Under the pieces are notes generated by a model that ran no database searches, had not been told where the DNA came from, and was given only the letters and a program-made list of their open reading frames with translations. DNA of 64,000 nucleotides from Deltaproteobacteria bacterium (lineage in GTDB: Bacteria; Desulfobacterota; GWC2-55-46): assembly GCA_016219075.1 (NCBI GenBank), contig JACRCJ010000286.1, positions 27,528-91,527 on the forward strand. Reading direction: 5' to 3'. Position 1 is the stretch's first letter. Every line of letters begins with the position of its first letter. Below are positions 2,887 to 36,651 of this stretch, piece by piece. The position numbers and the translations under genes are program-made.

Positions 2887-2919
2887 GTGCCGCGAGCCAC
2901 TAAAAGAGACGGAGGGCCG

Positions 2920-4449: not shown

Positions 4450-4453
4450 AACG

Positions 4454-20028: not shown

Positions 20029-20039
20029 GGGGGCGAATT

Positions 20040-23811: not shown

Positions 23812-25854
23812 ATGAAAAAAATAATTTCAAGGCTCCTCCATCCGACATACATCAAGAGGACCGCGTTCTTCTTCATCTTCGACATCGTTATAATAGCGTT
23901 TTCACTCTACTTCTCCTTCCTCGTCCGGTTCGATTTCGACCTCACGGACGAATACAGGAGGCTCGCCGTGGACGCGATACCGATATTCATACTGGTGAAA
24001 TTGAGCGTCTTTTCGGCCTTCAGGCTTAGCAGGATAACATGGAAGTACGTGGGTCTCCGCGACCTTATCAACATCAGCGCCGCGCTCCTCGCCTCCGAGG
24101 CGGTATTGGCCCTCATAATACTCTTCCCGCCCGCCGGATGGGCCTACTTCTCGTCGTTCATCCCGGATATAAAGGCGCTCGGGTTCCCGCGGAGCATCTT
24201 TATTATCGATGCCGCCAATTCGCTCCTGCTCCTTTTGACGCTCAGGGTCTCCAAGAGGCTTTACGTCGAGTTCCTCCACGGGAACGGGAGCAACAGGAAC
24301 GGCCTGAAGACCGTCATCATAGGCGCGGGGAACGCCGGGGAGATGATCCTCCGGGACATGTCGCGCCATAACGGCTCCGGGTTCAGCCCGGCTGGCTTTC
24401 TCGACGACGACAGGACGAAGATCGGCACGTACATACACGGGGTAAAGGTCCTGGGCGCCACGGATATGCTGAGGGACGTCGTCCTCAAGAAGGGGATAAA
24501 GGCGATGATCATAGCGATACCGTCACTGAACCAGAAGACCCTGAGGAACATCTATGATTCCGCGCGCGACACCGGCGTGGAGACTATCAAGATAGTTCCC
24601 CGGATATATGACTACGACAGGCCCGAGGTGAACCTGAAGAGCCTCGAAACCATCAGCATAGAGGACATCCTCGGCAGGAGGGTCGTAGAGGTAGACTACG
24701 GGGAGATAAGGAAGTTCCTCAAGGACAAAGTCGTGCTCGTCACCGGGGCAGGCGGCTCCATAGGCTCCGAGATAGCCGTGCAGGCGCTCGGCTGCGGGCC
24801 CTCACAGCTCATCCTCTTCGACATAGACGAAACCGAGCTGCATAACATGGAGATAAGGCTCAAGAGGACGTTCCCGCACCTGTTCAGGCAGGGTGGGAAC
24901 GGAAAAGACCGTCCGAAGAAGGCAAATCACGAGAGGGTATCCTTTGTCGTTGGCGACGTCAGGGACATGGACAGGGTCGATTCGGTGCTGTCGGAATACA
25001 GGCCGCAGGTCGTCTTCCACGCAGCCGCCTACAAGCACGTGCCCATGATGGAGCATAACCCTGACGAGGCCGTCAAGGTGAATGTCTTCGGCGCGCACAG
25101 GATGGCGTCGGCATCGGTCAGGCACGGGGTCGGGAAGTTCATCATGATATCGACCGACAAGGCCGTGAGGCCGACGAGCGTAATGGGGGCCACGAAGAGG
25201 ATAGCCGAGTACGTCTGCAAGGCATACAACGGAGAAGGGGGGACCGAGTTCGTCTCGGTCAGGTTCGGCAACGTGCTCGGGAGCCGCGGCAGCGTCCTGC
25301 CGCTGTTCCTGGAGCAGTTGAAGGCCGGCGGCCCCATAACGGTCACGCACAGGGACATGAAAAGGTACTTCATGACAATACCCGAGGCGGTATCCCTCGT
25401 GCTGCAGGCCGGCGCGATAGGCCGCGGCGGGGACGTCCTCGTCCTCGACATGGGGGACCCCGTAAGGATAGTCGAGCTGGCCGAGGAGCTGATACGGATC
25501 CACGGCCTCGAGCCCCATAAGGACATAGACATCGAGTTCGTGCATATGAGGCCCGGCGAAAAGCTTTTTGAAGAAATACTGACGGCAGAGGAAGGGACGA
25601 CCGCGAGCAGGCATAAGCAGATTTTCATAGCTCGGGAATCCCGCAGGCACTCGAGGCTCGAGATAGAGAAGATACTGAAAGAGTTCGAGTCCCGGCTGGA
25701 CAACGGGCGCGGCGGGGTGAGGGAGCTGCTTAAGAAGCATGTGGTCCATTACGAGGCTGATGGCAGGGAAGCAACCGGGGAAACCGGCGCGCGGTCCATC
25801 CACGCGCCGGAACCGAATAGAGAGGAGGCAGCTGGATATGCAGGCGGACAATGA
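23812..25854 (+). CDS. membrane-anchored NDP-sugar 4,6-dehydratase/epimerase (WbpM/CapD/PglF family)
   Basis: Four N-terminal TM helices, then IIGAGNAGEM and VTGAGGSIGSE Rossmann motifs, YKHVPMME, and an extended SDR fold. 680 aa as in WbpM/PglF. Strong AAGAAGAGAGAGAG RBS. Confidence 0.8.
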   Translation: MKKIISRLLHPTYIKRTAFFFIFDIVIIAFSLYFSFLVRFDFDLTDEYRRLAVDAIPIFILVKLSVFSAFRLSRITWKYVGLRDLINISAALLASEAVLALIILFPPAGWAYFSSFIPDIKALGFPRSIFIIDAANSLLLLLTLRVSKRLYVEFLHGNGSNRNGLKTVIIGAGNAGEMILRDMSRHNGSGFSPAGFLDDDRTKIGTYIHGVKVLGATDMLRDVVLKKGIKAMIIAIPSLNQKTLRNIYDSARDTGVETIKIVPRIYDYDRPEVNLKSLETISIEDILGRRVVEVDYGEIRKFLKDKVVLVTGAGGSIGSEIAVQALGCGPSQLILFDIDETELHNMEIRLKRTFPHLFRQGGNGKDRPKKANHERVSFVVGDVRDMDRVDSVLSEYRPQVVFHAAAYKHVPMMEHNPDEAVKVNVFGAHRMASASVRHGVGKFIMISTDKAVRPTSVMGATKRIAEYVCKAYNGEGGTEFVSVRFGNVLGSRGSVLPLFLEQLKAGGPITVTHRDMKRYFMTIPEAVSLVLQAGAIGRGGDVLVLDMGDPVRIVELAEELIRIHGLEPHKDIDIEFVHMRPGEKLFEEILTAEEGTTASRHKQIFIARESRRHSRLEIEKILKEFESRLDNGRGGVRELLKKHVVHYEADGREATGETGARSIHAPEPNREEAAGYAGGQ

Positions 25855-26851
25855 GATAAATCTCCTCGACGCATTGCGCGTAGTATGGAGGAGGAGGGCC
25901 TTCATAGTGTTATTTACTTTTGCCTGCGCGCTCGGAGCGGCGATAATCACGCTTTTCATGACTGACCTTTACAGGGCCTCGGCGATACTCACGCCGGTAA
26001 ACGGCAAGGAAAAGATCGGAGGGGAGCTGTCGTTGATAGCCCAGCAGATAGGGGGGCTGTCGGGCATAACACTGCCCTCGTCCGGGTCGTCGTCCGAGAT
26101 AATAAGCCTGCTTAACTCCAACATACTCAAAGAGAAGGTAATCAAGGACTACGACCTCCTGCCCGTGCTTTTTCCAGAACAGTGGGACAGGGAGAAGAAG
26201 GCATGGAAGACCCCGGATAAATCTTTTTTCAGGCTCCCGGCGATATCCGGCCTCCTTACAGGCTTATTCAGACCGGCTGAAAGTCCGGCCAATGCGCAGG
26301 GCCCGACTGTCTGGGACGGGATAAGAAGGCTCGGCGAGATGACAAAAGTGAGTGCGAGCGCCAAGGACAATACGATAACTCTTATGATCGAGTTCCACGA
26401 CCCGGAGCTCGCCGCGAAACTGACGGAGCGCTTTTTGACGGCCCTGACAATGCACATGAGCGGCGAGGCCAAGAGGGTCGCCGAGGTGAACAGGAGATAC
26501 CTCGTCGAGCAGTTAGGCAATTCGACCGACCCGATAATCAGGCAGAAGATATACAATCTCATAGCGCAGCAGGTGGAGGTGTTCATGATGTCCGAGGTAA
26601 AAGAGAACTTCGCCTTCAAGGTCATAGACCCGCCGAGGGCCGCTGACAGGAGGGTATGGCCGAGGAGGTCCTCCATCGTGGAGCTCGCCTTTGCCGCTGC
26701 TTTCCTCGCGGCGTCATTCGGCGCTTTCGCAATCGATTACGTCCAAAATCGTCTGAGGAAGGATGGAGGGCGCTGTTGCGTGGAGGCGTCTGAAGGCCGC
26801 GAAAGCAATGAATTGAAGTATACCGGGAGGGATGCGGATGAACACACATAG
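25838..26851 (+). CDS. Wzz-like polysaccharide chain-length determinant (PCP, no kinase domain)
   Basis: N-terminal TM (AFIVLFTFACALGAAIITLF) after LLDALRVVWRRR and a C-terminal TM. AGAGGAGG RBS upstream of the ATG at 25838. The track ORF from 25739 is an extension overlapping wbpM. Confidence 0.65.
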   Translation: MQADNEINLLDALRVVWRRRAFIVLFTFACALGAAIITLFMTDLYRASAILTPVNGKEKIGGELSLIAQQIGGLSGITLPSSGSSSEIISLLNSNILKEKVIKDYDLLPVLFPEQWDREKKAWKTPDKSFFRLPAISGLLTGLFRPAESPANAQGPTVWDGIRRLGEMTKVSASAKDNTITLMIEFHDPELAAKLTERFLTALTMHMSGEAKRVAEVNRRYLVEQLGNSTDPIIRQKIYNLIAQQVEVFMMSEVKENFAFKVIDPPRAADRRVWPRRSSIVELAFAAAFLAASFGAFAIDYVQNRLRKDGGRCCVEASEGRESNELKYTGRDADEHT

Positions 26852-26957
26852 CGAGCGCATCTCCCGCTGCTTGCGGCGGGGTTCAGCGAGCGAATCGAAA
26901 TCGAAATTTCCTTATGTGTCGAAGATTCCCCGAAGAAAAGCTGCGGAGAGATTCAAC
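26840..26957 (+). repeat. ~118-nt intergenic repeat element, copy 1 (contains CCCCGCTG-CTTG-CGGCGGGG hairpin)
   Basis: Direct match (~88% identity by eye) to 51785-51898: GAACAC.CA.AGCGAGCGCAT.YCCCGCTG.TTGCGGCGGGGTT.AGCGAGCGAATCGAA...GTGTCGAAGATTCCCCG...GCTGCGG.GAGATTCAA. Confidence 0.8.
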
Positions 26958-26975
26958 AGGGTTTTCAGGGTATTG

Positions 26976-29900
26976 ATGTGCCTGTTCCTTATCCACCTCC
27001 TTGCGGGCGTAAGCCGCGCATATCAGGGGGACGGCATGATTGGGGACGCTAACGCCTACGCGCAGGGAGAAAACAATTACATCTCGGGCGAAGGCGGCGC
27101 GGGCAACGCAGGCTTCAAGTCCCCTGACGATATCTGCAGGGAGAAAAACCTTTCCATCGAGCAGTGCCAGTCTTTAAAGGACAGGATACTCGGCTCCGGG
27201 CTCAAGGACGAAGAGCTGTTAAAGAGTGCGCCCGAGCTGAAGGACCTGAAGCCGGAGGAGCTGATTAAAGGGAAAGAGCTCCTTAAAAAAAGAAGGACGG
27301 ACGACGAGGCACGGGCGGAGAAAAACCAGCCGCGTAAAAATGACCTTGACGAGACGCCTGAAGATGAGGATACCTCGCTTTTCGACAGGTACCTGGCCGA
27401 TACACCGGCGCACGAGGTGGAGCTTAAGCTCAAACCTTTCGGGTACGGCCTTTTTACAAGGCCGTTACAAAGGCCCAACCAGGACCTGCCCGTGGCGTCC
27501 GACTACGTTATAGGCCCTGGAGATGAGATCGGGGTCAACGTCTGGGGGAGGCTCAGCGGGCAGTACAGCCTTGTGGTAAGCAGGGAGGGGACGGTGCAGT
27601 TCCCGAACATCGGCCCGCTTACGGTGGCCGGCATGACATTCGAAGAGATGAAGAAGTTCCTCAAGAGGCAGTCGTCGAACATAATCGGCACTGACATAAA
27701 CATCACCATGGGGAAACTCCGGGGCATACAGGTCTTCGTCCTCGGGGAGGTGAAAAAACCAGGCGCCTACACCTTGAGCGGCATGTCCACGATAACCAAC
27801 GCGCTCATGGCCGCCGGAGGGCCTTCGAACATAGGCACGCTCAGAAGGATCGAGCTCAAGAGGGCGAACAGGACCATCTCGGCACTTGATTTCTACGACC
27901 TCCTGCAAAAAGGCGACAAATCGAACGACATGAGGCTCCAGAGCGGCGACGTCGTCTTCGTGCCGACGGTAGGCCCCCTCGTCGGCATAGCCGGGAACGT
28001 GAAAAGGCCCGCCATCTACGAGCTTAAGGACTCGACCGACCTCGTGGGAGCGCTCGAACTCGCAGGAGGGATAATCCCGACGGCATACGCTCAGCAGGTA
28101 CAGATAGAACGCGTGGAAGGCAACTCGCGCAGGACCATCGCCGACATAAACGCCTCCGGCAAGGACGCCCCCGGCTCCTTCATGCTCCAGGACGCGGACC
28201 TCGTCAAGGTATTCTCCATATTCGACAAGGACTCGAACGCGGTCTATGTCTACGGGAACGTAAAGAGGCCGGGCAAGTTCGAGCTTAAAAAAGGCATGCG
28301 CCTCAGGGACATAATAAGGGACGAGAACGACCTCTTGAAGGAGACCTACTTCGATTACGGGCTTGTAAAGAGGCTTATACCGCCGTCGATGGAAGTAAAG
28401 CTCATGCCGTTCAACCTCGGAAGCATGCTTTTCAAAGGCTCGGACGCCGACAATATCGAGCTATCCTACAGGGACGCGGTTTATATATTTCCGAAGAGGC
28501 TCTTCGAGGACAGAAAGACCGTCCGCATAGAGGGGGAGGTCAGGTGCGCGTATATGAAGCTCGATAAGAAGGCCCCTGAGGAATGCGACGCGAAAGACGG
28601 GCGCGGGTGCCCTGCCGCGGAGAATGAAAAGGCGGACAAGACGCCCCAGGGGCCGGCAACAAATATTTTACCGAAGGACAACGGCAAAAAGGAAGAACAA
28701 CCCTCTCAGGCGGCGACTTCAGCAGCGGCCCTGCAAGAGGCCAAAAAGGCCGTTGAGAAAGGCGCTGATGAGCCCGCAAAGGAAAACAACTGGGAAAAGA
28801 AGTTTGAGCAGAAAAGCGAAACAAAGCCCGTGAAAGCGGCCGGGGAGGCGCAAGGCTGGTGCGAGTTCGAGCTTGAGAAGGACCTGAGCGTAAAGGACCT
28901 GGTGCTACGCGCGGGCGGCCTTACCAGGGACGCCTCCCTGGAAGACTTCGAGCTCTACAGGACAGACCCCTCGACGAAAGAGGCGGTCCTGCAGAAGTTC
29001 AACCTCAAAAAGGCGATGGAAGGCGACAGGGGCGAGAACGTCTACCTCGCGGACCAGGACAGGGTCGTCATCCACTCGGTCTGGGAGAAGGTGCCCAAGC
29101 AATACCTGACCATAAAGGGCGAGGTCACAAAGCCGGGGCAGTACCCGTTCGCGGCGAACATGAGGGTAAGCGACCTCGTCTTCGCGGCGGGCAGCCTCCT
29201 TGAATCGAGCTACTCGGAGGCCGAGCTCGCCTCGCACACGGTCATAGACGGCGAACTCTCCCTCGTGAGCTACAAGGCGGTGAATCTGCGCGGGGCGATG
29301 TCCGGGCTCGAGACGGATAACGTAAGGCTCAAGCCCTACGACACCCTCTTCATAAAAAAGATCCCGGACTGGAGGGAGGAGAGGTTCGTAACGGTCGCCG
29401 GCGAGGTGCGCTTCCCCGGCAGGTACATAATAAAAAAGGGCGAGAGGCTCAGCTCGCTTATCGACAGGGCCGGCGGGTTTACTGACAAGTCATACCTGAA
29501 GGGCGCGGTCTTCCGCAGGGAATCCGTAAGGCAGATGCAGCAGAGGAACCTCGATGAGTCGATAAGCAGGCTTGAGCGTACCATGCTGTCGCAGTCCTCC
29601 ATAAACATAGAAAAATCGGTCACGCCGGAGGCCGCGAAGCAGCAGGAGATGGCGATGGAACAGAGAAAGACGCTTATAGCCAAGATGAGGGAAGTTAAGC
29701 CCAGGGGGAGGATAGTGGTGAGCCTGGCGCCTTCCGACAATCTCAGGGGCAGCCCTTACGACGTGATACTCGAGGACAACGACTTCCTCGAAGTGCCGGA
29801 GAGGTCGTCGGTAGTGAACGTTTCCGGCTCCATAATCAACCCGACCTCGTTCGTCTACGACCCCGGGACAAGCGTATCGTCCTATATCTCCAAGTCCGGC

Positions 29901-30179
29901 GGCACGACAGAGCTTGCCGACAAGGACAGGACGTACGTTATAAAGGCGGACGGCTCATCGTTAAGCCCTGACGCGCTCAGCAGCTGGACCAACTTCGATT
30001 GGAACGAGTCCACGAAGAGCTGGGAGGCGGGCTCGTACTCCGCCAAGCTTGAGCCCGGCGATACCATCGTGGTGCCGGAGCAGATAGAGAGGGTAGCGTG
30101 GCTCAGGGAGATAAAGGACGTAACGCAGATACTCTACCAGATAGCGGTTACGGCAGGGGTGATAATCGTTGCGTTTTAA
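26976..30179 (+). CDS. giant OPX/Wza-like outer-membrane polysaccharide export protein (Poly_export plus multiple SLBB domains, ~1067 aa)
   Basis: Signal peptide MCLFLIHLLAGVSRA. PES motif region VIGPGDEIGVNVWGR. Repeated SLBB-like blocks (VYVYGNVKRPGKFEL, VTIKGEVTKPGQY, VTVAGEVRFPGRYII). Low-complexity Lys/Glu/Ala-rich insert ~28560-28860. Hydrophobic C-terminal helix. The true start is probably the ATG at 26976, because the track ORF start at 26832 lies inside a repeated noncoding element. Confidence 0.7.
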   Translation: MCLFLIHLLAGVSRAYQGDGMIGDANAYAQGENNYISGEGGAGNAGFKSPDDICREKNLSIEQCQSLKDRILGSGLKDEELLKSAPELKDLKPEELIKGKELLKKRRTDDEARAEKNQPRKNDLDETPEDEDTSLFDRYLADTPAHEVELKLKPFGYGLFTRPLQRPNQDLPVASDYVIGPGDEIGVNVWGRLSGQYSLVVSREGTVQFPNIGPLTVAGMTFEEMKKFLKRQSSNIIGTDINITMGKLRGIQVFVLGEVKKPGAYTLSGMSTITNALMAAGGPSNIGTLRRIELKRANRTISALDFYDLLQKGDKSNDMRLQSGDVVFVPTVGPLVGIAGNVKRPAIYELKDSTDLVGALELAGGIIPTAYAQQVQIERVEGNSRRTIADINASGKDAPGSFMLQDADLVKVFSIFDKDSNAVYVYGNVKRPGKFELKKGMRLRDIIRDENDLLKETYFDYGLVKRLIPPSMEVKLMPFNLGSMLFKGSDADNIELSYRDAVYIFPKRLFEDRKTVRIEGEVRCAYMKLDKKAPEECDAKDGRGCPAAENEKADKTPQGPATNILPKDNGKKEEQPSQAATSAAALQEAKKAVEKGADEPAKENNWEKKFEQKSETKPVKAAGEAQGWCEFELEKDLSVKDLVLRAGGLTRDASLEDFELYRTDPSTKEAVLQKFNLKKAMEGDRGENVYLADQDRVVIHSVWEKVPKQYLTIKGEVTKPGQYPFAANMRVSDLVFAAGSLLESSYSEAELASHTVIDGELSLVSYKAVNLRGAMSGLETDNVRLKPYDTLFIKKIPDWREERFVTVAGEVRFPGRYIIKKGERLSSLIDRAGGFTDKSYLKGAVFRRESVRQMQQRNLDESISRLERTMLSQSSINIEKSVTPEAAKQQEMAMEQRKTLIAKMREVKPRGRIVVSLAPSDNLRGSPYDVILEDNDFLEVPERSSVVNVSGSIINPTSFVYDPGTSVSSYISKSGGTTELADKDRTYVIKADGSSLSPDALSSWTNFDWNESTKSWEAGSYSAKLEPGDTIVVPEQIERVAWLREIKDVTQILYQIAVTAGVIIVAF

Positions 30180-31851
30180 AAGAGCCCTCCCCAATGCCGC
30201 CGTCATAGCTCTTTTTATCGTTTTTTCAGCTGCGCAGGCCCATGCCTCAGCGCCCGGCAAGGACAACTGGGCACGGTGGGAGATATGGAGCTGGAAGGAC
30301 GTGGCCCTGGGCAACGTAACGACCAATCTCGACTCCGGGGGTGGAAGTGACGAAGGAGGCGGCATCGGCGGCAAGGCCGGGTGGGGGCGCGGCGGCAGCG
30401 CCTCCGCGAACGTGCCCGTGGGGAGCCGGGTCTATGAGTGCCTGGAGCGGCTTGAACTGGACGGCCTCATAAAGACCGGGCTTCTTTCCACCAGGCCCAT
30501 AAGCCGCGCCGAGGGCGCGAGGCTCACGTCCGAGGCTGAACGGAGGTTCGAGGCCCTGCCTGAGCAGTTGAAGCAGAGAAAGAGCCGCGCGAGGGCCGAT
30601 ATCCAGAGGTTAAAGACAATGTTCAGGGAAGAGCTCGGCGGGGGGAGCCCGGCCGTACTGGTCAAACCCGCCGACCGCATCTATCTCGAATACCTCTACA
30701 GCTCGAAAACACCGGTCTTTCCCAACGTGAACAATAACGGCGACGAGTTCAGGAAGGGCGCTAACCTGAGGCTCGGCACGGATACCGCCGTAAAGCTCTT
30801 CAACAGGGCCTCTCTTTACCTGAACCCGGAGTTCAGGCTTTCAGACGATACGCCCTCGGGAAAGCTCCTGCAAGGGTATCTGACCTTCGACCTTGCGGGT
30901 GTGGAGCTCGAGGCGGGCAGGGACTCGATGTGGTGGGGGGCGGGGTATCACGGGGACCTCCTTCTGACCAACAACGCCGCGCCGTTCGACATGATAAAGG
31001 TCTCCTCGGCAAGGCCGGTGCTGCTGCCGTGGAAGCTCAAGTACCTCGGGCTTTTCAAGCCGACATTTTTCCTTACCCACCTTGAGAAGGACAGGGACTT
31101 CCCGAGGGCGAGCCTCCTCGGGATGAGGCTCGATTTCAAGCCTACCCCGAGGTTCCAGATAGCCCTCAACAGGGTCTTCATCTTCGGAGGCGAGGGGAGG
31201 CGGAGCCTGAACCTGGGCGAATGGGCGAAGGTGTTCTTCGTCTCAGACAGCGCCGACCACGCGGACTCGCCCATAAACGGCGACCAGCTCGCCTCCATAG
31301 ACGCCTCATACGTCTACGCAAGCGAAAACAGCTACATCCCTTTCTCCGGGTTGAAGCTCTACACCGAGTGGGGGGCCGAGGACTCCTCTGGACACACAAA
31401 AACGCCAACCGGCCGGGCGAACCTCTACGGGGTCTTTGTAAGCGGCCCCTTCTGGATGCCTGATGTGGACCTCAGGGTCGAATGGGCTAACACGGCGCGG
31501 AACGCCAGGTACGGCCCGCTCTGGTACGAGCACGGGGTCTACACGGACGGGTACAGGTACAACGGCCTGGTCATAGGCCACCACATGGGGGGCGACGCGC
31601 AGGACCTTTTCTTAAGGGCTCAGTACCACGGAGATAACGGAAAACAGATAGGCGTGGAGTACGACACAGAAAGGTCGGGTATACACGGCTCATCCGTAAC
31701 CAAAAAGAAGTGGCTTGGTGTGGACGTGACATATCCCTTGAAGACGGACATCTCTGTACAGGGGAATTACGGGATGGAGGTGGTCAAGTCCGATAACTCG
31801 GAGCCGGTCAAGGGCTTTACAGTCGGGGTAAAGATGGCGTGGGAGTTCTGA
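30169..31851 (+). CDS. outer-membrane beta-barrel protein, Wzi/Wzp-like partner of the OPX exporter
   Basis: Signal peptide ending AQAHA. Alternating hydrophobic beta-strand pattern throughout. C-terminal aromatic residue (…MAWEF). Overlaps the wza-like stop by 11 nt. Confidence 0.5.
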   Translation: MRFKRALPNAAVIALFIVFSAAQAHASAPGKDNWARWEIWSWKDVALGNVTTNLDSGGGSDEGGGIGGKAGWGRGGSASANVPVGSRVYECLERLELDGLIKTGLLSTRPISRAEGARLTSEAERRFEALPEQLKQRKSRARADIQRLKTMFREELGGGSPAVLVKPADRIYLEYLYSSKTPVFPNVNNNGDEFRKGANLRLGTDTAVKLFNRASLYLNPEFRLSDDTPSGKLLQGYLTFDLAGVELEAGRDSMWWGAGYHGDLLLTNNAAPFDMIKVSSARPVLLPWKLKYLGLFKPTFFLTHLEKDRDFPRASLLGMRLDFKPTPRFQIALNRVFIFGGEGRRSLNLGEWAKVFFVSDSADHADSPINGDQLASIDASYVYASENSYIPFSGLKLYTEWGAEDSSGHTKTPTGRANLYGVFVSGPFWMPDVDLRVEWANTARNARYGPLWYEHGVYTDGYRYNGLVIGHHMGGDAQDLFLRAQYHGDNGKQIGVEYDTERSGIHGSSVTKKKWLGVDVTYPLKTDISVQGNYGMEVVKSDNSEPVKGFTVGVKMAWEF

Positions 31852-32062
31852 TCGTTGCCGTGAGCCTTAAAAAAATATTGACAACCCTGCCCTTATCTGA
31901 GAATATTATTGACTATGGTAATCTGAAACGCTTGGGGTGTCACACCGGGCGCAAAGGTACCTGGGCAGGTTTTGAAAAAAAGAATAAGGCCGTTAGTGTT
32001 ACAAGACCGCGCCTGCATACTTGATAGAGTACCTCAAGTTAGTCCAGCAACCCTTCAAAAAA

Positions 32063-32068
32063 TATAAT
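32063..32068 (+). promoter_or_regulatory. putative -10 hexamer (TATAAT) for tRNA-Arg
   Basis: Perfect TATAAT 10 nt upstream of the mature tRNA 5' end, in an AT-rich leader. The -35 is weak (TTAGTC). Confidence 0.35.
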
Positions 32069-32077
32069 CTTTCCTTA

Positions 32078-32154
32078 GCCCCCGTAGCTCAGATGGATAG
32101 AGCAACGGATTCCTAATCCGTGTGCCGGACGTTCGAATCGTCTCGGGGGCGCCA
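32078..32154 (+). tRNA. tRNA-Arg (anticodon CCT, decodes AGG)
   Basis: Cloverleaf folds by eye. Acceptor GCCCCCG/CGGGGGC, D-arm GCTC-AGATGGATA-GAGC, anticodon arm ACGGA-TTCCTAA-TCCGT (CCT at 34-36), T-arm GGACG-TTCGAAT-CGTCT, discriminator G, encoded CCA. TATAAT at 32063-32068 sits 10 nt upstream. Confidence 0.85.
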
Positions 32155-32370
32155 TTTTTTCCTTAACATCCGTTAGCGGCAAAGTTATACATCCACCAAG
32201 AAAAACTTTCATTCGTGCGCTCGGCGGAAGGTACGCCCTTTTAAAAGCGCATCAAATGAGCTGTATAAAAGGCAAGGACCTTGCCGGCGATCCCCGCCAT
32301 TTAAGGCGAGGTAATTCAATTCTGATATAATGAAAGGGATATGTGAAAACTCTTTCAGGAGGGCCCTTAA

Positions 32371-32604
32371 ATGGCTGTCGAGGCGTATGTCTTTATCGAA
32401 TGCGAGCACGCGAGGTCAAAGGAGGTCCTTGATGCCCTCGTGAAGATAGGCGGGGTCAGGGACGCAAGGATAGTGACGGGCCCTTACGACCTCATAGCGC
32501 TTGTAGCCGCGTCGAACTTCAAGGTACTGGGAGACGTGGTCATAAGCAAGATACAGTCTATCAACTATGTCAAGAGGACCCTTACGAACGTAATCATCGA
32601 TTAA
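32371..32604 (+). CDS. stand-alone Lrp/AsnC ligand-binding (RAM) domain protein, 77 aa
   Basis: YVFIECEHARSKEVLDALVKIGGVRDARIVTGPYDLIALV matches the AsnC_trans_reg/RAM beta-alpha-beta-beta-alpha-beta fold signature. No HTH present. TGATATAATG -10-like sequence at ~32324 and a CAGGAGGG RBS. Confidence 0.6.
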   Translation: MAVEAYVFIECEHARSKEVLDALVKIGGVRDARIVTGPYDLIALVAASNFKVLGDVVISKIQSINYVKRTLTNVIID

Positions 32605-32643
32605 GCCCGTTCACAATCCACTTCAGGCCCCACACACGAACAG

Positions 32644-32680
32644 GGATCAGTTGCTCTACCATCTGAGAGCTATAAGACTT
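32644..32680 (-). pseudogene. tRNA-like fragment (inverted partial copy of a tRNA 5' half/D-arm, resembling tRNA-Arg positions ~8-40)
   Basis: Minus strand reads TAGCTCTCAGATGGTAGAGCAACTGATCCC, versus tRNA-Arg TAGCTCAGATGGATAGAGCAACGGATTCC. No complete cloverleaf can be drawn. Confidence 0.4.
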
Positions 32681-32826
32681 TAGAGCGGGGCAGGGGATTA
32701 GGTGCGAGTATGTTTGCCGGCAGGGACTTGCGGCGCTGAGTCTGGTATGGATAAGTGCGTTATGGTTTTTTGCCCGGCCGTGGTTTTTGACGCAGGCGAA
32801 TGGCGCTAACCGAGGGGCCGGAAGCC

Positions 32827-33693
32827 TCAGTTGTAATACGCCCTTATCTGGTCCTTCAAGCCGTCAACGGTCTCGCTTATCTCCTTCAGGGCCTCTCCCT
32901 TGAGATTGAGGGACTTGAGGAAAAAGGCGTGGTCAGGGGAAATGACGGTGTATTTTGAAGTAAGGGAGTTGCCGTCGGAGACTATCAGGTCCGCCAGGTA
33001 GACCATGGGCACGAGGCATGAAAGATGCCTTTCAGCGGCCTCCATGTGCAGGCGGTATGTCTCCGGGTCGTGATGATACCTGATGGCGGCTACGCAGTCC
33101 TCCGGCAGCTTGCACTTGTCCGCGAACCACGCGCCCGCCTCCGGGTGCGCCGCGCCGAACGACTCCTCTTCGAGGACAATGAGCCCGGCCGAATCAGGGG
33201 CCGATACCTCGAGGTAATTCTTCCCGTGGACCTGGAATATTATGGGCCTGCCGATATCGTGAAGCAGCCCGGCGAGGAAGGCCGTGTCCTTGCTGATAAG
33301 GCCGGTCTTTTGCGCCAGGAGGGTCGATGTCAGCGCCACTTCGAAGGAATGCTGCCATATAGCCGCGACGTCGTTACGCCTGTCCCCGGAAATGCCCTTG
33401 AAGACCACCATCGATATGGCAAGCCCCTTGACCATCTCGAACCCGAGGACGAGTATCGCCTGCGAAATGGATGATATCTTTCTCGGGAACCCGTAGAAGA
33501 CCGCGTTCGAGATACCCACTATCCTTAAGGCAAGCGCCTGGTCATGCTCTATTACGGCCTCGAGGTCGGTGACCGATGAATTGCCGCTCCCGGTTATCTC
33601 CATTATCTTTTTCAATACAGAGGGTATGGAGGATATCTTTACCAGCTCGTTTATCTTCGCTCTCAACGCCTCTTTACGGTCATCGAACATCAT
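32827..33693 (-). CDS. HDOD domain-containing signalling protein
   Basis: PSVLKKIMEITGSGNSSVTDLEAVIEHDQALALRIV...LGFEMVKGLAIS...LLHDIGRPI is the HDOD (HD-related output domain) pattern. Confidence 0.65.
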   Translation of the reverse strand: MMFDDRKEALRAKINELVKISSIPSVLKKIMEITGSGNSSVTDLEAVIEHDQALALRIVGISNAVFYGFPRKISSISQAILVLGFEMVKGLAISMVVFKGISGDRRNDVAAIWQHSFEVALTSTLLAQKTGLISKDTAFLAGLLHDIGRPIIFQVHGKNYLEVSAPDSAGLIVLEEESFGAAHPEAGAWFADKCKLPEDCVAAIRYHHDPETYRLHMEAAERHLSCLVPMVYLADLIVSDGNSLTSKYTVISPDHAFFLKSLNLKGEALKEISETVDGLKDQIRAYYN

Positions 33694-34027
33694 TTTTTCC
33701 CTAAAATCATTTTTATTTATCCGGATTTCGGCCCTGATACCTATTTATCGGTAATGGGCAATTAAACTTTACTTCTTTTTGAGCCGTAAAAACCTTGTAA
33801 AACAAACACTTTAAAATGCGTCCCTCCGGAATGCGCGGCAGGGGATAGGAACAGTTATTTTCTTATATATTTGAGCCATCCGTCTCTATTATATGGTTAC
33901 AAAGTTCTCATAGTCATAGCTGAAAAATATCAATGCCGGGCCTGTAAAGGCTTGTGTTAGCAGGGCATACTGTGTTAAAAAAGGACGGGAAAACAACCCG
34001 CTTAGCCGTTTCCCTTTTTTCAAACCG

Positions 34028-35497
34028 ATGGGCTATCTTAAATCCCGTTTCACTTTATCCATAATAATCTTTCTGCTCGTCTTGGCGGCGTCCGGATATT
34101 CGTTCATGAAAAACCGCCAGTTGGGGCACCTCGGGGGCATGACCGATGAGTGGTTCGACCTCGGGATCAACATATCCGTATTCGGCGAGTATTCGATCGG
34201 CGGCGTCGACCCGGTCGTATTCAGACCTCCGGGATACCCGTTTTTCGTGGCCGGGATAGCAGACGTCTTCGCCGGACGGCACGACCTGAGGGTGATAGAC
34301 ACCGACGCGAAGTGGGCGGAGTGGAGGGACTTTTCAATAAAGGCCCTGAACTCGCTCTATCTCTCGCAGTGCGTGCTCCTGGCCCTCTCGTCCGTGGCGC
34401 TCTTTCTGTGGGCATCGAGGTACTTCGGCAGGGGAGCGGCATTTTCCGGGGCGCTCCTTTTCGGGGCTAACCCGTATTCAATCGTGCTGACCGGCCTTCT
34501 CCATTACGATATCCTCCATATCTTCCTTATAGTGGTATCCACGTTTCTCCTTACCCTGTTCCTTGAAAACGATAAGAGGCCCGGGGGCAAGATGTTCCTC
34601 GCAGGCGCGGCCTGGGGCATAGCTACGCTCGTGCGCCCGGTCACGCTTACGCTGCCGGTCTTTATCCTCGCGATGCTGTTCATAAAATCAGGCTCGTTAA
34701 GGCGCGCCGCTTACATGACATCCGCTCTCGTCCTTGGGATGGCGCTGGTGGTCCTCCCGTACACGGCCAGAAACTACTCGCTGACCGGGAGGGTCATACC
34801 CGTGAACGCCCAGAGCTGGACCGCGCTGTGGGGCTCGACGGTTACGAAATTTTCGATAAACCCGAACCACTACAACTGGTACAGGGTCTACCCCGACCCG
34901 TACGAGAAGATATTCCAAAGGGCGACGGGCGAGGGGTATACATACGAGGGGCTCATAAGGAATAACATCAAGGTGGAGGACGAATTCAAAAAAAGCGCCA
35001 TCGAGAACCTTAAGAAAAGCCCCGGTACCTATGTCGTCAACTGCCTCACGTCTTTCTTTACACTCAATATCCACATAAACTCGGTCTTCATAAAGGTCTT
35101 CCAGTTCATCCAAAGCCCCGATAACGGGATAGAAAAGGCCTGGTTTGTGCCCGGCGCCGCCCAGGACTTCTATCCGTCTACGGCCTCAAATGCGTTTTCT
35201 TTCCTTGTATACGCGCTTACGGGCTTAAGCCTGTTAGGTCTTTATCTCTCCCTGAAAAAAAAGGACGGCTTCTTCCTTGTGCCGGGGGCGGTCTACCTGG
35301 CCCTGACGGTTTCTCACTCGCTTACTTACTTTGACCTCATGTATTACTATATAAAGATGCCTTTCCTGTTCCTTTTCGCCTTTTACGCGGTCAACGCTCT
35401 CGGGGGATACAGGCTTAAAGGTGTCCCTATCCCGGCCCTCCTGATAATTACTCTACTGGTCTATACCTTCGCCCTCGATATAGCGGTCTTCTATTAA
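34028..35497 (+). CDS. GT-C fold glycosyltransferase, PMT/ArnT (GT39/GT83)-like integral membrane protein
   Basis: ~12 TM helices. RPPGYPFFVAGIADVF loop motif typical of PMT_2/ArnT-like transferases. Confidence 0.55.
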   Translation: MGYLKSRFTLSIIIFLLVLAASGYSFMKNRQLGHLGGMTDEWFDLGINISVFGEYSIGGVDPVVFRPPGYPFFVAGIADVFAGRHDLRVIDTDAKWAEWRDFSIKALNSLYLSQCVLLALSSVALFLWASRYFGRGAAFSGALLFGANPYSIVLTGLLHYDILHIFLIVVSTFLLTLFLENDKRPGGKMFLAGAAWGIATLVRPVTLTLPVFILAMLFIKSGSLRRAAYMTSALVLGMALVVLPYTARNYSLTGRVIPVNAQSWTALWGSTVTKFSINPNHYNWYRVYPDPYEKIFQRATGEGYTYEGLIRNNIKVEDEFKKSAIENLKKSPGTYVVNCLTSFFTLNIHINSVFIKVFQFIQSPDNGIEKAWFVPGAAQDFYPSTASNAFSFLVYALTGLSLLGLYLSLKKKDGFFLVPGAVYLALTVSHSLTYFDLMYYYIKMPFLFLFAFYAVNALGGYRLKGVPIPALLIITLLVYTFALDIAVFY

Positions 35498-35754
35498 CAG
35501 GCCGCTGAAAAAGTCCCTGAACAAATTCCGAGCAGGCTTACGGTTACGCGACACAGGGAGCCTCCTTTTCAGCCTTCCTCCTTTTTCTTCCTGCGTTTCT
35601 TGATGTCGCATAATGGATATTATGTCAAATTGCATATATTTAAGACTGCGTATAAAGGAAATACTGAAATGCTTTGTTTTGTATTGCTTTTCTCCCCTGC
35701 CGATACAGGACGCTGTCGGGGTCGCGTGAGGAAATGTTATGCTGGCTGGCTGTT

Positions 35755-36651
35755 CTACCCTCTTGGGTGGTTTTTCTTGTGGAGGGACTTCAGTCTTTCG
35801 TTGGTTATATGGGTGTATATCTGCGTGGTGGAGATATCGGCGTGGCCGAGCATCTCCTGGACAAGGCGCAGGTCCGCCCCGCCTTCAAGGAGATGCGTGG
35901 CGAATGAATGTCGTATTATGTGCGGTTTTATCCTCTTCCTTTCTATCCCGGCCCTGAGAGCGGCGGTCTTTATTATGACCCAGAAGTTCTGCCGTGTCAT
36001 TTTGGTGCCTCGGGCCGTTACAAAAAGGTGCTTGTTAGTCCTCTTTTTAAGGATGGCCGGCCTCGACCCTTCAAGGTACAGCCTCAGCCAGTGCATCGCC
36101 GCCTCGCCGAACGGCACAAGCCGCTCCTTCGACCCCTTGCCGAATGCGGTCAAATATCCGGCCTGGAGGTTCAGGTCGTTCAGCTTAAGCCCCGTAAGCT
36201 CTGATACCCTCAGGCCCGTCGCGTATAGCACCTCTATCATGGCCCTGTCGCGCAGCCCCAGAGGCGTTTCCGTGTCCGGGGCATTCAGTAGCCTTTCGAC
36301 CTCGTCTATTTTCAGGAAATCAGGGAGCCTCCTGGCGAGCCTCGGTATGTCGACATTGGAGCAAGGAGAGGACTTGACCCTGCCTTTCTTGAGCTGGTAC
36401 TTGTAGAACCCCCTTATCGCTATCAGGGCCCTTGTATATGACCTTACCGCGTTGCCGCTCCGCTTGAGGTCTTCGAGGTAGCCCGTTATGTCCGCCGGGC
36501 TGGCCTGCAACAGCGGCACGCCCCTTTTGTCGAGGGCCGCGGAGAACCTTGATATGTCCCTGCCGTAGGAAAGGAGCGTATTGGTGGATAGCCCCCTTTC
36601 AACCACTATGTAGTCGAGGAACTCGCTCAGGAGGTCGCCGCTATTTTCCAT
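35755..36651 (-). CDS. xerD: tyrosine recombinase XerD
   Basis: N-terminal SAM-like domain (LSEFLDYIVVERGLSTNTLLSYGRDI). Catalytic RHSFATHLLEGGADLRLVQEMLGHADISTTQIYTH with Arg-His-Arg-Tyr residues. ~298 aa. Start at the ATG at 36651 follows the glnD stop. Confidence 0.85.
   Translation of the reverse strand: MENSGDLLSEFLDYIVVERGLSTNTLLSYGRDISRFSAALDKRGVPLLQASPADITGYLEDLKRSGNAVRSYTRALIAIRGFYKYQLKKGRVKSSPCSNVDIPRLARRLPDFLKIDEVERLLNAPDTETPLGLRDRAMIEVLYATGLRVSELTGLKLNDLNLQAGYLTAFGKGSKERLVPFGEAAMHWLRLYLEGSRPAILKKRTNKHLFVTARGTKMTRQNFWVIIKTAALRAGIERKRIKPHIIRHSFATHLLEGGADLRLVQEMLGHADISTTQIYTHITNERLKSLHKKNHPRG

What the first reader, a model, noticed from the sequence alone, without database searches (positions are those of the whole stretch)
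26976..31851. Unusually large multi-SLBB OPX exporter with a low-complexity charged insert, paired with a dedicated beta-barrel outer-membrane protein
The Wza-like protein is ~1067 aa, roughly three times E. coli Wza. It has at least four SLBB-like repeats and a ~100-aa Lys/Glu/Ala/Pro-rich insert (about 28560-28860). It is followed, with an 11-nt overlap, by a 560-aa signal-peptide beta-barrel protein ending in Phe. This matches the recently recognised OPX classes in which the periplasmic exporter relies on a separate 18-strand porin (Wzp/Wzi-like) to cross the outer membrane. However, this OPX also retains a hydrophobic C-terminal helix, so its class is ambiguous.
Basis: partly seen in the sequence, partly recalled or inferred. 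Interest (0 to 1): 0.5.

Follow-up and report, generated by a model that had tools for sequence, protein, structure and literature searches.

The report
Long polysaccharide exporter beside Wzi barrel
These are the last two genes of a surface-polysaccharide gene cluster in an uncultured deltaproteobacterium: a long KpsD-type export channel that keeps its own outer-membrane helix, and a plugged Wzi-type barrel best known for holding capsule on the cell surface, so this is an ordinary member of kinds already catalogued.

Summary
ORF 26976-30179 encodes a 1067-aa OPX protein: one Poly_export domain, seven SLBB domains (not four) and a disordered ~104-aa K/A/E-rich insert. ORF 30169-31851 overlaps it by 11 nt and encodes a 560-aa Wzi-family protein modelled as an 18-strand barrel.

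The interpretation does not hold.
- **OPX class.** The last two SLBB domains plus a helical hairpin form a GfcC-like module, followed by a near-invariant amphipathic C-terminal helix. By the published scheme (Saidi 2022) this is Class 2B (KpsD type), which is credited with spanning the outer membrane itself. It is not a Class 3 OPX that needs a porin.
- **The barrel.** It is a Wzi with its N-terminal helical plug, not a Wzp/EpsX-type open porin. Characterised Wzi anchors capsule and does not export it.
- **Synteny.** In related species with enough flanking DNA, 33 of 48 long-OPX loci have no Wzi gene nearby.

Size is normal for this family: the best 120 of more than 3600 homologs are 773-1255 aa. 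NCBI already names both proteins.

The one mildly new point is the insert. It sits in the beta1-beta2 hairpin of the fourth SLBB. That site is a family-wide insertion hot spot, often bracketed by a covarying Cys pair.

New member of a known kind; low interest.

The parts
25739..26851 (+). Wzz-domain polysaccharide co-polymerase (370-aa ORF, no kinase domain), the likely inner-membrane partner of the OPX. The true start may lie downstream, because the ORF overlaps the preceding gene by 116 nt.
   Evidence: Pfam Wzz 3.1e-12. Only weak NCBIfam matches, to chain-length determinant and Wzc N-terminus models. A homolog lies directly upstream of the OPX in 51 of 62 related loci.
26976..30179 (+). OPX gene, 1067 aa. 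Order of parts: signal peptide, N-terminal helical region, Poly_export, seven SLBB domains, C-terminal helix.
26976..27485 (+). Signal peptide (about aa 1-15, no lipobox) and an N-terminal helical region (aa ~50-108) with a Cys-x9-Cys pair. No known domain.
   Evidence: Sequence. No Pfam match for aa 1-170. Model helices at 50-108 with pLDDT about 50-84. The motif is conserved in the family consensus.
27489..27701 (+). Poly_export (PES, Wza D1-like) domain, aa 172-242.
   Evidence: Pfam PF02563 1.7e-17. Aligns to Wza 2W8I/2J58.
27723..28493 (+). SLBB domains 1-3 (aa 250-329, 335-414, 422-506).
   Evidence: Per-segment Pfam SLBB/SLBB_2 matches, 1.5e-12, 3.8e-12 and 7.7e-07. Model pLDDT around 90.
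28518..29078 (+). SLBB domain 4 (aa 515-701), split by the insert in its beta1-beta2 hairpin.
   Evidence: With the insert removed, the segment matches SLBB at 1.4e-4 (22.1 bits, below Pfam's 27-bit cutoff) and SLBB_2 at 1.4e-3 over the full profile length. Model strands 515-520 and 628-632 flank the disordered stretch.
28548..28859 (+). Low-complexity K/A/E/P-rich insert (aa 525-628). It is bracketed by C524 and C629 and contains C537 and C545.
   Evidence: Composition. pLDDT below 50 over 529-625. Same-site inserts occur in 45 of 120 homologs, with a covarying Cys pair in 22 and no homolog carrying only the first Cys. Identity to close homologs is 51-66% in the insert against 82-96% in the SLBB/Poly_export domains.
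29103..29360 (+). SLBB domain 5 (aa 710-795).
   Evidence: Pfam SLBB 1.3e-05 on the isolated segment (25.4 bits, just below the 27-bit cutoff). Model.
29382..30074 (+). GfcC-like module: SLBB6 (aa 803-940) with an inserted helical hairpin (aa 849-906), then SLBB7 (aa 946-1033).
   Evidence: Foldseek GfcC 3P42 E 4.5e-9, TM(target) 0.59. hhalign against E. coli GfcC 84% probability, E 7e-6. PDB profile search hits 3p42 at E 0.065. Sub-threshold Pfam GfcC_N and GfcC_C matches appear in the right order. Helices 849-880 and 884-906 in the model.
30087..30176 (+). C-terminal amphipathic/hydrophobic helix (aa 1038-1067, ...WLREIKDVTQILYQIAVTAGVIIVAF), the presumed outer-membrane-spanning segment.
   Evidence: Many positions of 1042-1062 are conserved in at least 90% of 120 homologs. 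Hydrophobic moment about 0.5 over 1040-1061, with a polar stripe R1044/K1047/D1048/Q1051/Q1055/T1059. Rough insertion free energy +3.0 kcal/mol. Model helix 1049-1066, low confidence in the monomer.
30169..31851 (+). Wzi-family outer-membrane protein gene, 560 aa, TTG start, overlapping the OPX stop by 11 nt.
   Evidence: Pfam Caps_assemb_Wzi 2.4e-85. PDB 2YNK 4.4e-13 by sequence and 2.7e-25, TM 0.80, by fold. Identical to the NCBI protein 'capsule assembly Wzi family protein'. RBS-like AGGGG upstream.
30247..30408 (+). Trp/Gly-rich low-complexity extension (aa ~27-80) between the signal peptide and the conserved start of mature Wzi. It is particular to this protein.
   Evidence: pLDDT below 50 over 25-73. 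There are 83 residues before the NVPVGS motif, against a median of 32 in 107 homologs.
30418..30636 (+). N-terminal helical bundle of Wzi (aa ~84-156), the periplasmic plug.
   Evidence: Model helices 87-97, 113-128, 132-137 and 139-151 at pLDDT above 90. The alignment to 2YNK spans 497 columns of a 441-residue target. A weak sequence alignment joins aa 106-147 to Wzi 27-71.
30655..31848 (+). 18-strand beta-barrel of Wzi (aa 163-560), ending in Phe.
   Evidence: 18 strands in the model, pTM 0.85. Best PDB fold match is Wzi; AlgE comes second at 3e-12.

Best explanation
The two genes close a Wzx/Wzy-dependent surface-polysaccharide locus (about nt 700-31851).

**The 1067-aa protein** is a Class 2B (KpsD-type) outer-membrane polysaccharide export protein.
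- It is made with an ordinary (non-lipoprotein) signal peptide.
- By analogy with Wza, it probably assembles as a ring-shaped oligomer of eight stacked rings: one Poly_export ring and seven SLBB rings. These would form a long periplasmic tube docked on the Wzz-type co-polymerase encoded just upstream.
- Its C-terminal amphipathic helices would form the pore through the outer membrane. The exporter therefore does not need a separate porin.

**The ~104-residue charged insert** is a disordered loop at the tip of the beta1-beta2 hairpin of the fourth SLBB.
- It is probably stapled at its base by a C524-C629 disulfide.
- It most likely projects outward from the tube into the periplasm.
- It is a tolerated, fast-evolving expansion at a site where the family repeatedly accepts inserts.

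**The 560-aa protein** is a Wzi: an 18-strand barrel plugged by its own N-terminal helical bundle. It most likely binds the exported polymer on the cell surface and holds or organises it there, as E. coli K30 Wzi does. It is probably translationally coupled to the OPX gene.

**Shown here:** domain content, folds, conservation and synteny. **Inferred:** oligomeric state, membrane insertion of the helix, disulfides, loop orientation and lectin function.
For: **Locus context.** Wzx (Polysacc_synt), a Wzy_C-family protein, a WecA-like GT4, a WbpM-like dehydratase, many glycosyltransferases and Wzz are all present.

**OPX.**
- Poly_export plus seven SLBB domains.
- Wza is the best solved relative (2.6e-16 by sequence; 1.4e-17 by fold).
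- A separate GfcC-like module is detected.
- There is no lipobox. Class 2B proteins mostly carry SPI signal peptides and have a median length of 824 aa (PMC9603273).

**C-terminal helix.**
- Nearly invariant across 120 homologs that share only 43-60% identity overall.
- Amphipathic.
- Rough membrane-insertion free energy above zero, as reported for outer-membrane helices of OPX proteins (PMC11845990).

**Wzi.**
- Pfam match far above the cutoff.
- 18 strands plus helical bundle, TM 0.80 to 2YNK.
- Wzi is a plugged lectin needed for capsule anchoring rather than export (PMC3791409; PMC9601211).

**Synteny.**
- Wzz then OPX is the conserved core (51 of 62 loci).
- Wzi is adjacent in only 15 of 48 loci, in two different positions, and always co-directional.
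- In two further relatives Wzi follows the GT4 gene and the OPX lies elsewhere.

**Insert.** Disordered in the model, sited at a hot spot with a covarying Cys pair, and evolving faster than the domains.
Against: - No experiment exists on any member of this clade.
- Pfam Wza_C was not detected in the tail even at E up to 10.
- The helix is modelled with low confidence in a monomer.
- The final 19 residues are more uniformly hydrophobic than a classic amphipathic helix (mean Kyte-Doolittle 1.9).
- For KpsD itself, the literature calls membrane spanning uncertain.
- Sequence evidence for the GfcC module is only moderate (hhalign 84%; Pfam sub-threshold).
- The Foldseek output did not report which query residues align to 3P42.
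- Saidi et al. treat barrels near OPX genes of all classes, Wzi included, as possible export partners.
- The tight overlap of the two genes fits a physical partnership as well as it fits mere co-expression.
- The orientation of the insert relative to the channel was not determined.
Confidence: 0.75

Rival explanations
1. Composite translocon. The OPX forms only the periplasmic tube, and the adjacent 18-strand barrel is the actual outer-membrane pore, as in Myxococcus WzaX/WzpX (EpsY/EpsX).
For: The genes overlap by 11 nt and are probably co-translated. A Wzi gene lies next to the Wzz-OPX pair, co-directional, in 15 of 48 related loci. Saidi et al. found Wzi-type barrels near OPX genes of every class and proposed that some act as export barrels. 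AlgE, a real polysaccharide porin, is the second-best fold match.
Against: The barrel keeps the helical plug, and it belongs to the Wzi family rather than the Wzp/PgaA-like family. Saidi's porin candidates were specifically the plug-less Wzi homologs. Schwabe et al. contrast Wzi with EpsX on exactly this feature. The OPX keeps a near-invariant C-terminal helix, which Class 3 OPX proteins lack. 33 of 48 loci of the same OPX family have no Wzi within the fetched flank.
Confidence: 0.1
2. The C-terminal hydrophobic helix does not form a pore. It would be a simple membrane anchor or an oligomerisation element. The polymer would then leave through an unidentified route or stay periplasmic or cell-bound.
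For: The last 19 residues are strongly hydrophobic (mean Kyte-Doolittle 1.9) and the hydrophobic moment falls to about 0.25 at the very end. Pfam Wza_C gives no match. The literature calls outer-membrane spanning by KpsD uncertain.
Against: A polar stripe (R1044, K1047, D1048, Q1051, Q1055, T1059) runs along one face and the moment is about 0.5 over 1040-1061. The rough insertion energy is +3 kcal/mol, so retention in the inner membrane is unlikely. Nothing follows the helix that could sit in the cytoplasm. Conservation is extreme. The position after a GfcC-like module matches Class 2B.
Confidence: 0.08
3. The charged insert is a functional module rather than a tolerated loop. It could be a periplasmic spacer, a cell-wall contact, or a docking site for a partner protein, held out from the fourth SLBB ring by a disulfide.
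For: Length (101-109 aa), four Cys and a QEAKKA motif are kept in four homologs although only 51-66% of residues are identical. The Cys pair covaries perfectly in 22 homologs, with 5 more carrying a shifted variant. Other clades carry a coiled coil or what may be a folded unit at the same site. In P0096 the insert resembles the family's N-terminal module.
Against: 75 of 120 homologs have no insert (0-1 extra residues) at this site. The sequence is low-complexity, predicted disordered and fast-evolving. It matches no Pfam family.
Confidence: 0.2

Closest known systems
E. coli KpsD and the Class 2B OPX proteins of Saidi et al. 2022 (Poly_export-SLBBn-GfcC-C-terminal helix)
   Same: Same order of modules: a Wza-like N-terminal part, extra SLBB domains, a GfcC-like pair of beta-grasp domains with a helical hairpin, and a terminal helix. 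Ordinary signal peptide rather than a lipoprotein signal. Long (class median 824 aa).
   Different: Longer, with seven SLBB domains. It sits in a Wzx/Wzy locus with a Wzz-type co-polymerase, not in an ABC-transporter (KpsMT/KpsE) locus. It has a ~155-aa N-terminal helical region with no known domain. It carries a ~104-aa disordered insert in SLBB4. Pfam GfcC models match only below threshold.
E. coli Wza (PDB 2J58), Class 1 OPX
   Same: Best solved relative for the Poly_export, SLBB1 and SLBB2 region (2.6e-16 by sequence, 1.4e-17 by fold). C-terminal helix as the presumed pore.
   Different: Wza is a 379-aa lipoprotein with two SLBB domains and no GfcC-like module. Its D1 loop, which carries the gating tyrosine ring, is about 11 residues longer in the alignment.
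E. coli K30 Wzi (PDB 2YNK)
   Same: Same Pfam family, an 18-strand barrel, an N-terminal helical bundle, and a gene in the same operon as the OPX of a Wzx/Wzy capsule locus.
   Different: Only 19% identity in the structural alignment. An extra ~55-aa Trp/Gly-rich disordered segment follows the signal peptide. The gene lies downstream of the OPX rather than at the head of the wzi-wza-wzb-wzc operon. No tyrosine kinase or phosphatase is encoded in the locus.
Myxococcus xanthus WzaX/WzpX (EpsY/EpsX) composite translocon, Class 3 OPX plus porin
   Same: An OPX gene next to a gene for an 18-strand outer-membrane barrel in a Wzx/Wzy locus.
   Different: Class 3 OPX proteins are short (median 256 aa), lack the C-terminal helix, and about half are lipoproteins. 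Wzp barrels are PgaA/AlgE-like and have no helical plug. NCBIfam EpsY scores 79 bits against a cutoff of 320.
E. coli GfcC (PDB 3P42), group 4 capsule
   Same: Two beta-grasp domains, a helical hairpin inserted in the first, and an amphipathic helix at the end. Foldseek 4.5e-9; hhalign E 7e-6.
   Different: GfcC is a stand-alone 248-aa periplasmic protein. Here the module is fused to the end of an OPX.

Membership tests
OPX (outer-membrane polysaccharide export) family | N-terminal Poly_export (PF02563) domain followed by at least one SLBB domain | tested here: met
   PF02563 at 63.8 bits (cutoff 28). SLBB at 202.6 bits and SLBB_2 at 139.3 bits.
OPX (outer-membrane polysaccharide export) family | Ring-shaped oligomer (an octamer in Wza) forming a channel | not testable with these tools
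   Only monomer prediction was available.
Class 2B OPX (Saidi et al. 2022, PMC9603273) | Region homologous to Wza 2J58 | tested here: met
   phmmer 2.7e-16 over aa 171-410. Foldseek 6.3e-17.
Class 2B OPX (Saidi et al. 2022, PMC9603273) | Separate, non-overlapping region homologous to GfcC 3P42 | tested here: met
   Foldseek 3p42_B at 4.5e-9, probability 1.00, TM(target) 0.59, 265 columns. hhalign of aa 800-1067 against E. coli GfcC gives 84% and E 7e-6, aligning aa 899-1000 to GfcC 102-202. PDB profile search gives E 0.065. Pfam GfcC_N and GfcC_C match only below threshold.
Class 2B OPX (Saidi et al. 2022, PMC9603273) | C-terminal alpha-helix of Wza_C type after the GfcC module | tested here: inconclusive
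   A helix is predicted at 1049-1066. It is amphipathic over 1040-1061 and nearly invariant. Pfam Wza_C gave no match at E up to 10, and HHpred against the 2J58 helix, the published criterion, could not be run.
Class 1 OPX (Wza type) | Poly_export-SLBBn-Wza_C with no GfcC-like region; mostly lipoproteins | tested here: not met
   A GfcC-like region is present. There is no lipobox Cys after the signal peptide.
Class 3 OPX with Wzp porin (composite translocon) | OPX lacks any C-terminal membrane-spanning helix | tested here: not met
   A conserved 26-30 residue terminal helix is present.
Class 3 OPX with Wzp porin (composite translocon) | Partner barrel is PgaA/AlgE-like, open, and has no N-terminal helical plug | tested here: not met
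   The partner is Wzi family. Helical bundle 87-156 is modelled at pLDDT above 90. The 2YNK match (2.7e-25) is far better than AlgE (3e-12).
Wzi (PF14052, capsule assembly protein) | Match to the family model above the curated cutoff | tested here: met
   287.4 bits against a cutoff of 30.1, covering profile positions 22-384 of 392.
Wzi (PF14052, capsule assembly protein) | 18-strand barrel with an N-terminal helical bundle at the periplasmic end | tested here: met
   18 strands plus four helices in a model with pTM 0.85. TM 0.80 to 2YNK over 497 columns. Whether the bundle actually occludes the lumen could not be inspected, because no coordinates were available.
Wzi (PF14052, capsule assembly protein) | Lectin-like binding of the cognate polymer; loss releases capsule from the cell | not testable with these tools
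   Needs experiment. The function is taken from E. coli K30 (PMC3791409).

The most novel reading that the evidence does not exclude
The beta1-beta2 hairpin of the fourth SLBB ring may be a dedicated display site on long OPX channels. Different lineages would hang different modules there on a disulfide-stapled stalk: charged disordered loops, coiled coils, small folded units, or a copy of the N-terminal module. Counting down from the outer membrane, it is the fourth ring, roughly where the cell wall might lie. These modules could therefore tie the export tube to peptidoglycan or to a periplasmic partner. That role has not been described for OPX proteins.
Probability: 0.15. Interest if true: 0.45.

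Novelty: new member of a known kind. Interest (0 to 1): 0.2.

Why it matters
Little changes for the field. The case shows that a long OPX next to a barrel gene should not be read by default as a composite translocon. The presence of the Wzi plug and of the OPX terminal helix decides the question, and both can be checked from sequence and a monomer model.

The locus adds a Wzx/Wzy-linked example of KpsD-type architecture, which is usually discussed for ABC-transporter capsules. It comes from an uncultured deltaproteobacterial lineage.

The insertion hot spot in SLBB4, with its covarying cysteine pair, is a small structural observation. It could guide where tags or domains can be inserted into OPX channels.

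Tried and rejected
- **Exact-sequence lookup of the window's OPX** found no contig on record, so the source contig could not be read beyond the window.
- **The afdb50 fold library** was not available.
- **Pfam Wza_C and GfcC models** on isolated C-terminal segments gave nothing (Wza_C) or only sub-threshold matches (GfcC). A profile search of PDB put GfcC at E 0.065 only. The GfcC assignment therefore rests on Foldseek plus hhalign.
- **Obligate Wzi partner:** rejected, because most related loci lack an adjacent Wzi and Wzi sits away from the long OPX in L002 and L004.
- **Lipoprotein OPX:** rejected. There is no lipobox in the window protein, and the Cys in P0002 and P0004 is not in a canonical lipobox.
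- **Insert as an assembly artefact or a repeat expansion private to this contig:** rejected, because three other assemblies carry it.
- **Promoter and terminator scan of 25500-33000:** no more sites than expected from shuffles. It shows only a promoter-like site after the Wzi stop and gives no evidence for an internal promoter between the two genes.
- **Not run:** the representative-library HMMER search. Family size and lengths were already clear.

Full report
**1. What is in the sequence.**

On the + strand, an ORF runs from ATG 26976 to the stop at 30177-30179 and encodes 1067 aa. The frame is open from an ATG at 26832. However, the 1067-aa form is identical to an NCBI protein named 'MAG: SLBB domain-containing protein [Deltaproteobacteria bacterium]'.

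A second ORF starts at TTG 30169, 11 nt before the end of the first, and ends at 31851, giving 560 aa.
- AGGGG lies about 10 nt upstream of the TTG.
- The product begins with a typical signal peptide and ends in Phe.
- It is identical to an NCBI protein named 'capsule assembly Wzi family protein'.

**2. Context.**

The two genes end a co-directional block of about 31 kb. It encodes:
- a Wzx-type flippase, a Wzy_C-family protein and two PMT_2-type membrane proteins;
- glycosyltransferases of families 1, 2 and 9;
- a WecA-like GT4 initiating transferase and a 680-aa WbpM/PglF-like dehydratase;
- five B12-binding radical SAM enzymes and a methyltransferase;
- a 370-aa Wzz-domain co-polymerase, directly upstream of the exporter.

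No tyrosine kinase or ABC transporter was found in the block. After 31851 come unrelated genes on both strands: HDOD, a tyrosine recombinase, GlnD, an amidase and MutS. This is a Wzx/Wzy-type surface-polysaccharide locus. The polymer itself is unknown.

**3. The large protein.**

Pfam finds Poly_export (aa 172-242), SLBB (7 stretches) and SLBB_2. All seven separately scanned segments match SLBB/SLBB_2, three of them just below Pfam's 27-bit cutoff when scanned alone.

An AlphaFold2 model built on 120 homologs has mean pLDDT 78.6, with the domains mostly above 90. Its layout is:

| Part | Residues |
|---|---|
| Poly_export | 184-245 |
| SLBB1 | 250-329 |
| SLBB2 | 335-414 |
| SLBB3 | 422-506 |
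| SLBB4 (disordered stretch 529-625) | 515-701 |
| SLBB5 | 710-795 |
| SLBB6 (two long helices, 849-880 and 884-906, inserted) | 803-940 |
| SLBB7 | 946-1033 |
| Terminal helix | 1049-1066 |

The best solved relatives are Wza structures, at 2.6e-16 by sequence and 1.4e-17 by fold.

GfcC (3P42) also matches, at E 4.5e-9 with TM(target) 0.59 over 265 columns. A profile of residues 800-1067 aligns to E. coli GfcC with 84% probability and E 7e-6. It also finds 3p42 at E 0.065 in a PDB profile search. Sub-threshold Pfam matches to GfcC_N and GfcC_C fall on SLBB6 and SLBB7, in that order.

GfcC is described as two Wza-like SLBB domains plus a C-terminal amphipathic helix (PMC9603273).

**4. Which class.**

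Saidi et al. (PMC9603273) define three classes:
- Class 1: Poly_export-SLBB(1-14)-Wza_C.
- Class 2: proteins with both a 2J58-like region and a separate 3P42-like region. Subclass 2B adds a terminal helix; its median length is 824 aa and most members have ordinary signal peptides.
- Class 3: proteins lacking both the helix and the GfcC module (median 256 aa).

The window protein has both regions, a terminal helix and no lipobox, so it fits Class 2B.

The tail (...WLREIKDVTQILYQIAVTAGVIIVAF) has these properties:
- Many of its positions are conserved in at least 90% of 120 homologs that share only 43-60% identity overall.
- Its hydrophobic moment is about 0.5 over residues 1040-1061, with a polar stripe on one face.
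- A rough position-independent insertion energy is +3.0 kcal/mol (the scale was taken from memory of Hessa 2005). That is on the side reported for outer-membrane helices of OPX proteins (PMC11845990).

One caveat remains. Pfam Wza_C does not match, and I could not run the HHpred criterion the authors used. This feature is therefore predicted, not proven.

**5. Size is not unusual for the family.**

Of 8000 candidates scored, 3641 proteins match at E <= 1e-10. The best 120 are all 773-1255 aa with the same Pfam content. Where a source names them, they come from Deltaproteobacteria, Syntrophales, Thermodesulfobacteriota and Nitrospirota MAGs.

A scan of one genome per species found 564 relatives. 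The best 80 are again mostly from Syntrophales/Smithella, Desulfobacterales, Nitrospirota and unclassified Deltaproteobacteria MAGs. Large OPX proteins have been a recognised group since the 2009 classification cited in PMC11845990 (groups E and F).

**6. The insert.**

Residues 525-628 are rich in K, A, E and P, match no Pfam family and are modelled as disordered. They interrupt the beta1-beta2 hairpin of SLBB4: GEVRC-[insert]-CEFELE.

In the alignment of 120 homologs, this hairpin region (aa 518-645 of the query) is 25 residues long in 73 of them. The remaining 47 include two with a single extra residue and 45 with 5-144 extra residues at the same point. Those 45 are of several unrelated kinds:
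- short or long Cys-bracketed loops;
- a ~75-aa coiled-coil-like segment;
- inserts of roughly 85-125 residues with a shared motif;
- in P0096, a segment resembling the family's own N-terminal Cys-x9-Cys/PEF module.

The two bracketing cysteines covary. 22 sequences have both, none has only the first, and five more have a variant shifted by two residues. This points to a disulfide at the base of the loop.

Among the three closest homologs (77-88% identical overall), identity is 51-66% in the insert against 82-96% in the SLBB/Poly_export domains. Length, four cysteines and a QEAKKA motif are nevertheless kept.

I read this as a tolerated, fast-evolving loop at a permissive site. A functional role is not excluded. 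By inference only: eight copies of a 100-residue disordered loop could not sit in the channel lumen without blocking it, so the loop probably points outward.

**7. The 560-aa protein.**

- Pfam Caps_assemb_Wzi scores 287 bits against a cutoff of 30.1.
- E. coli Wzi 2YNK is the only solved sequence match (4.4e-13).
- The model (pLDDT 88, pTM 0.85) has 18 strands between residues 163 and 559. Helices at 87-97, 113-128, 132-137 and 139-151 precede them.
- It superposes on 2YNK with TM 0.80 over 497 columns (E 2.7e-25). AlgE follows at 3e-12.

Wzi is an 18-strand barrel closed outside by loops and plugged at the periplasmic end by a helical bundle. It binds K30 polymer and is needed for capsule assembly on the surface (PMC3791409).

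Schwabe et al. state that Wzi is important for anchoring but not for biosynthesis or export. They contrast it with EpsX, which lacks the helical bundle (PMC9601211). Saidi et al. single out only the plug-less Wzi homologs as export-barrel candidates. The window protein keeps the bundle.

It also has an extra Trp/Gly-rich disordered stretch after the signal peptide. There are 83 residues before the conserved NVPVGS motif, against a median of 32 in homologs.

**8. Is Wzi a fixed partner of this OPX family?**

I searched 80 loci from different species for homologs of the window's Wzz and Wzi.
- Wzz lies directly upstream of the OPX in 51 of 62 loci with enough upstream sequence.
- Of the 48 loci with at least 3.5 kb upstream and 2 kb downstream, 9 have Wzi just downstream of the OPX, 6 have it just upstream of Wzz, and 33 have none in the fetched flank.

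In two further relatives Wzi follows the GT4 gene, at the end of a conserved block (GT9, two radical SAM genes, epimerase, GT2, GT4). The long OPX lies elsewhere on the contig, or a shorter OPX lies divergently nearby. In another relative the order OPX then Wzi is the same as here.

So Wzi belongs to the polysaccharide locus in one part of the family but is not bound to the OPX. Saidi et al. had already counted Wzi-type barrels near OPX genes of all classes: 133 full-length, of which 48 were near Class 2B.

**9. Mechanism proposed.**

- Repeat units are built on undecaprenyl phosphate, flipped by Wzx and polymerised by Wzy with the Wzz-type co-polymerase.
- The growing chain enters a long OPX tube made of eight stacked rings. 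By analogy with Wza this would be an octamer, and by inference from Wza's dimensions it would be of the order of 20 nm or more.
- The chain leaves through a barrel formed by the C-terminal helices.
- Wzi, made from the same message, binds the polymer outside and keeps it on the cell.

The domain content, folds, conservation and synteny are shown here. The stoichiometry, membrane insertion, disulfides, loop orientation and lectin activity are inferred.

**10. Verdict.**

The families are right, but the pair is not a Class 3 OPX/porin translocon, and the class is not ambiguous.

This is a new member of known kinds, already named correctly by automatic annotation. The insertion hot spot with its cysteine pair is the only feature I did not find described, and it is a minor one.

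Noticed in passing
window 2887-7798 and 18574-21485: The polysaccharide locus contains five B12-binding radical SAM genes. The one at 20040-21485 matches the hopanoid-associated HpnJ model over its full length (400 bits, below the 577 cutoff). Relatives keep a block of GT9, two radical SAM genes, epimerase, GT2, GT4 and Wzi (L002, L004). This suggests unusual radical chemistry on the sugar units.
   Followed up: partly
window 30247-30408 (Wzi aa 27-80): A Trp/Gly-rich disordered segment (…NWARWEIWSWKD…SGGGSDEGGGIGGKAGWGRGGSAS…) lies between the signal peptide and the conserved start of mature Wzi. Homologs have a median of 32 residues before that motif, against 83 here. Both proteins of the pair therefore carry lineage-specific low-complexity additions.
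   Followed up: partly
P0096 (homolog), insert at the SLBB4 hairpin: In this homolog the insert at the hot spot resembles the family's own N-terminal module (Cys-x9-Cys followed by a …TPE…L…PEF.G… motif), as if that module had been moved into the loop.
   Followed up: no
window 26832-26978: The OPX frame is open from ATG 26832, which overlaps the Wzz ORF end by 20 nt. With the annotated start at 26976 the signal peptide has no positively charged N-region. The homolog P0002 starts a few residues earlier (MSRTFRVLMC…). The true start is uncertain.
   Followed up: partly
window 27489-27701 (OPX aa 172-242): In the alignment to Wza, the loop between the first two strands of the Poly_export domain is about 11 residues shorter than in Wza. 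In Wza that loop carries the gating tyrosine ring, and a short loop was reported as a Class 3 trait. A Tyr still aligns with the Wza QY.
   Followed up: no
window 25739-25854: The Wzz ORF as listed overlaps the preceding 680-aa dehydratase gene by 116 nt, and its Wzz domain starts only at residue 38. The real start is probably further downstream.
   Followed up: no
window 32000-36700: GC content drops to 0.51-0.53 (0.56-0.59 in the neighbouring stretches) right after the locus. A XerC/D-like tyrosine recombinase gene lies at 35755-36675 (-), and another PMT_2-type glycosyltransferase gene at 34028-35497. This may mark a boundary of the polysaccharide region.
   Followed up: no
window 52719-58361 (- strand): A secretin gene (Secretin, STN, Secretin_N), a PilM-like gene and an AAA_22 ATPase gene lie in one co-directional run. 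This looks like a type IV pilus or MSHA-like assembly cluster. An 858-aa protein with a Big_1 domain lies next to it.
   Followed up: no
L004 11220-13349 and 9996-11201: One relative has a shorter (709-aa) OPX with its own Wzz, encoded divergently just after the Wzi gene. The 927-aa long OPX (P0046) that shares a 2.59-Mb assembly contig with this same Wzi (P0182) sits in a separate sugar-modification cluster (L001, read from that assembly; L004 is a copy of the Wzi locus from a different metagenome). These organisms therefore appear to have several OPX systems.
   Followed up: no
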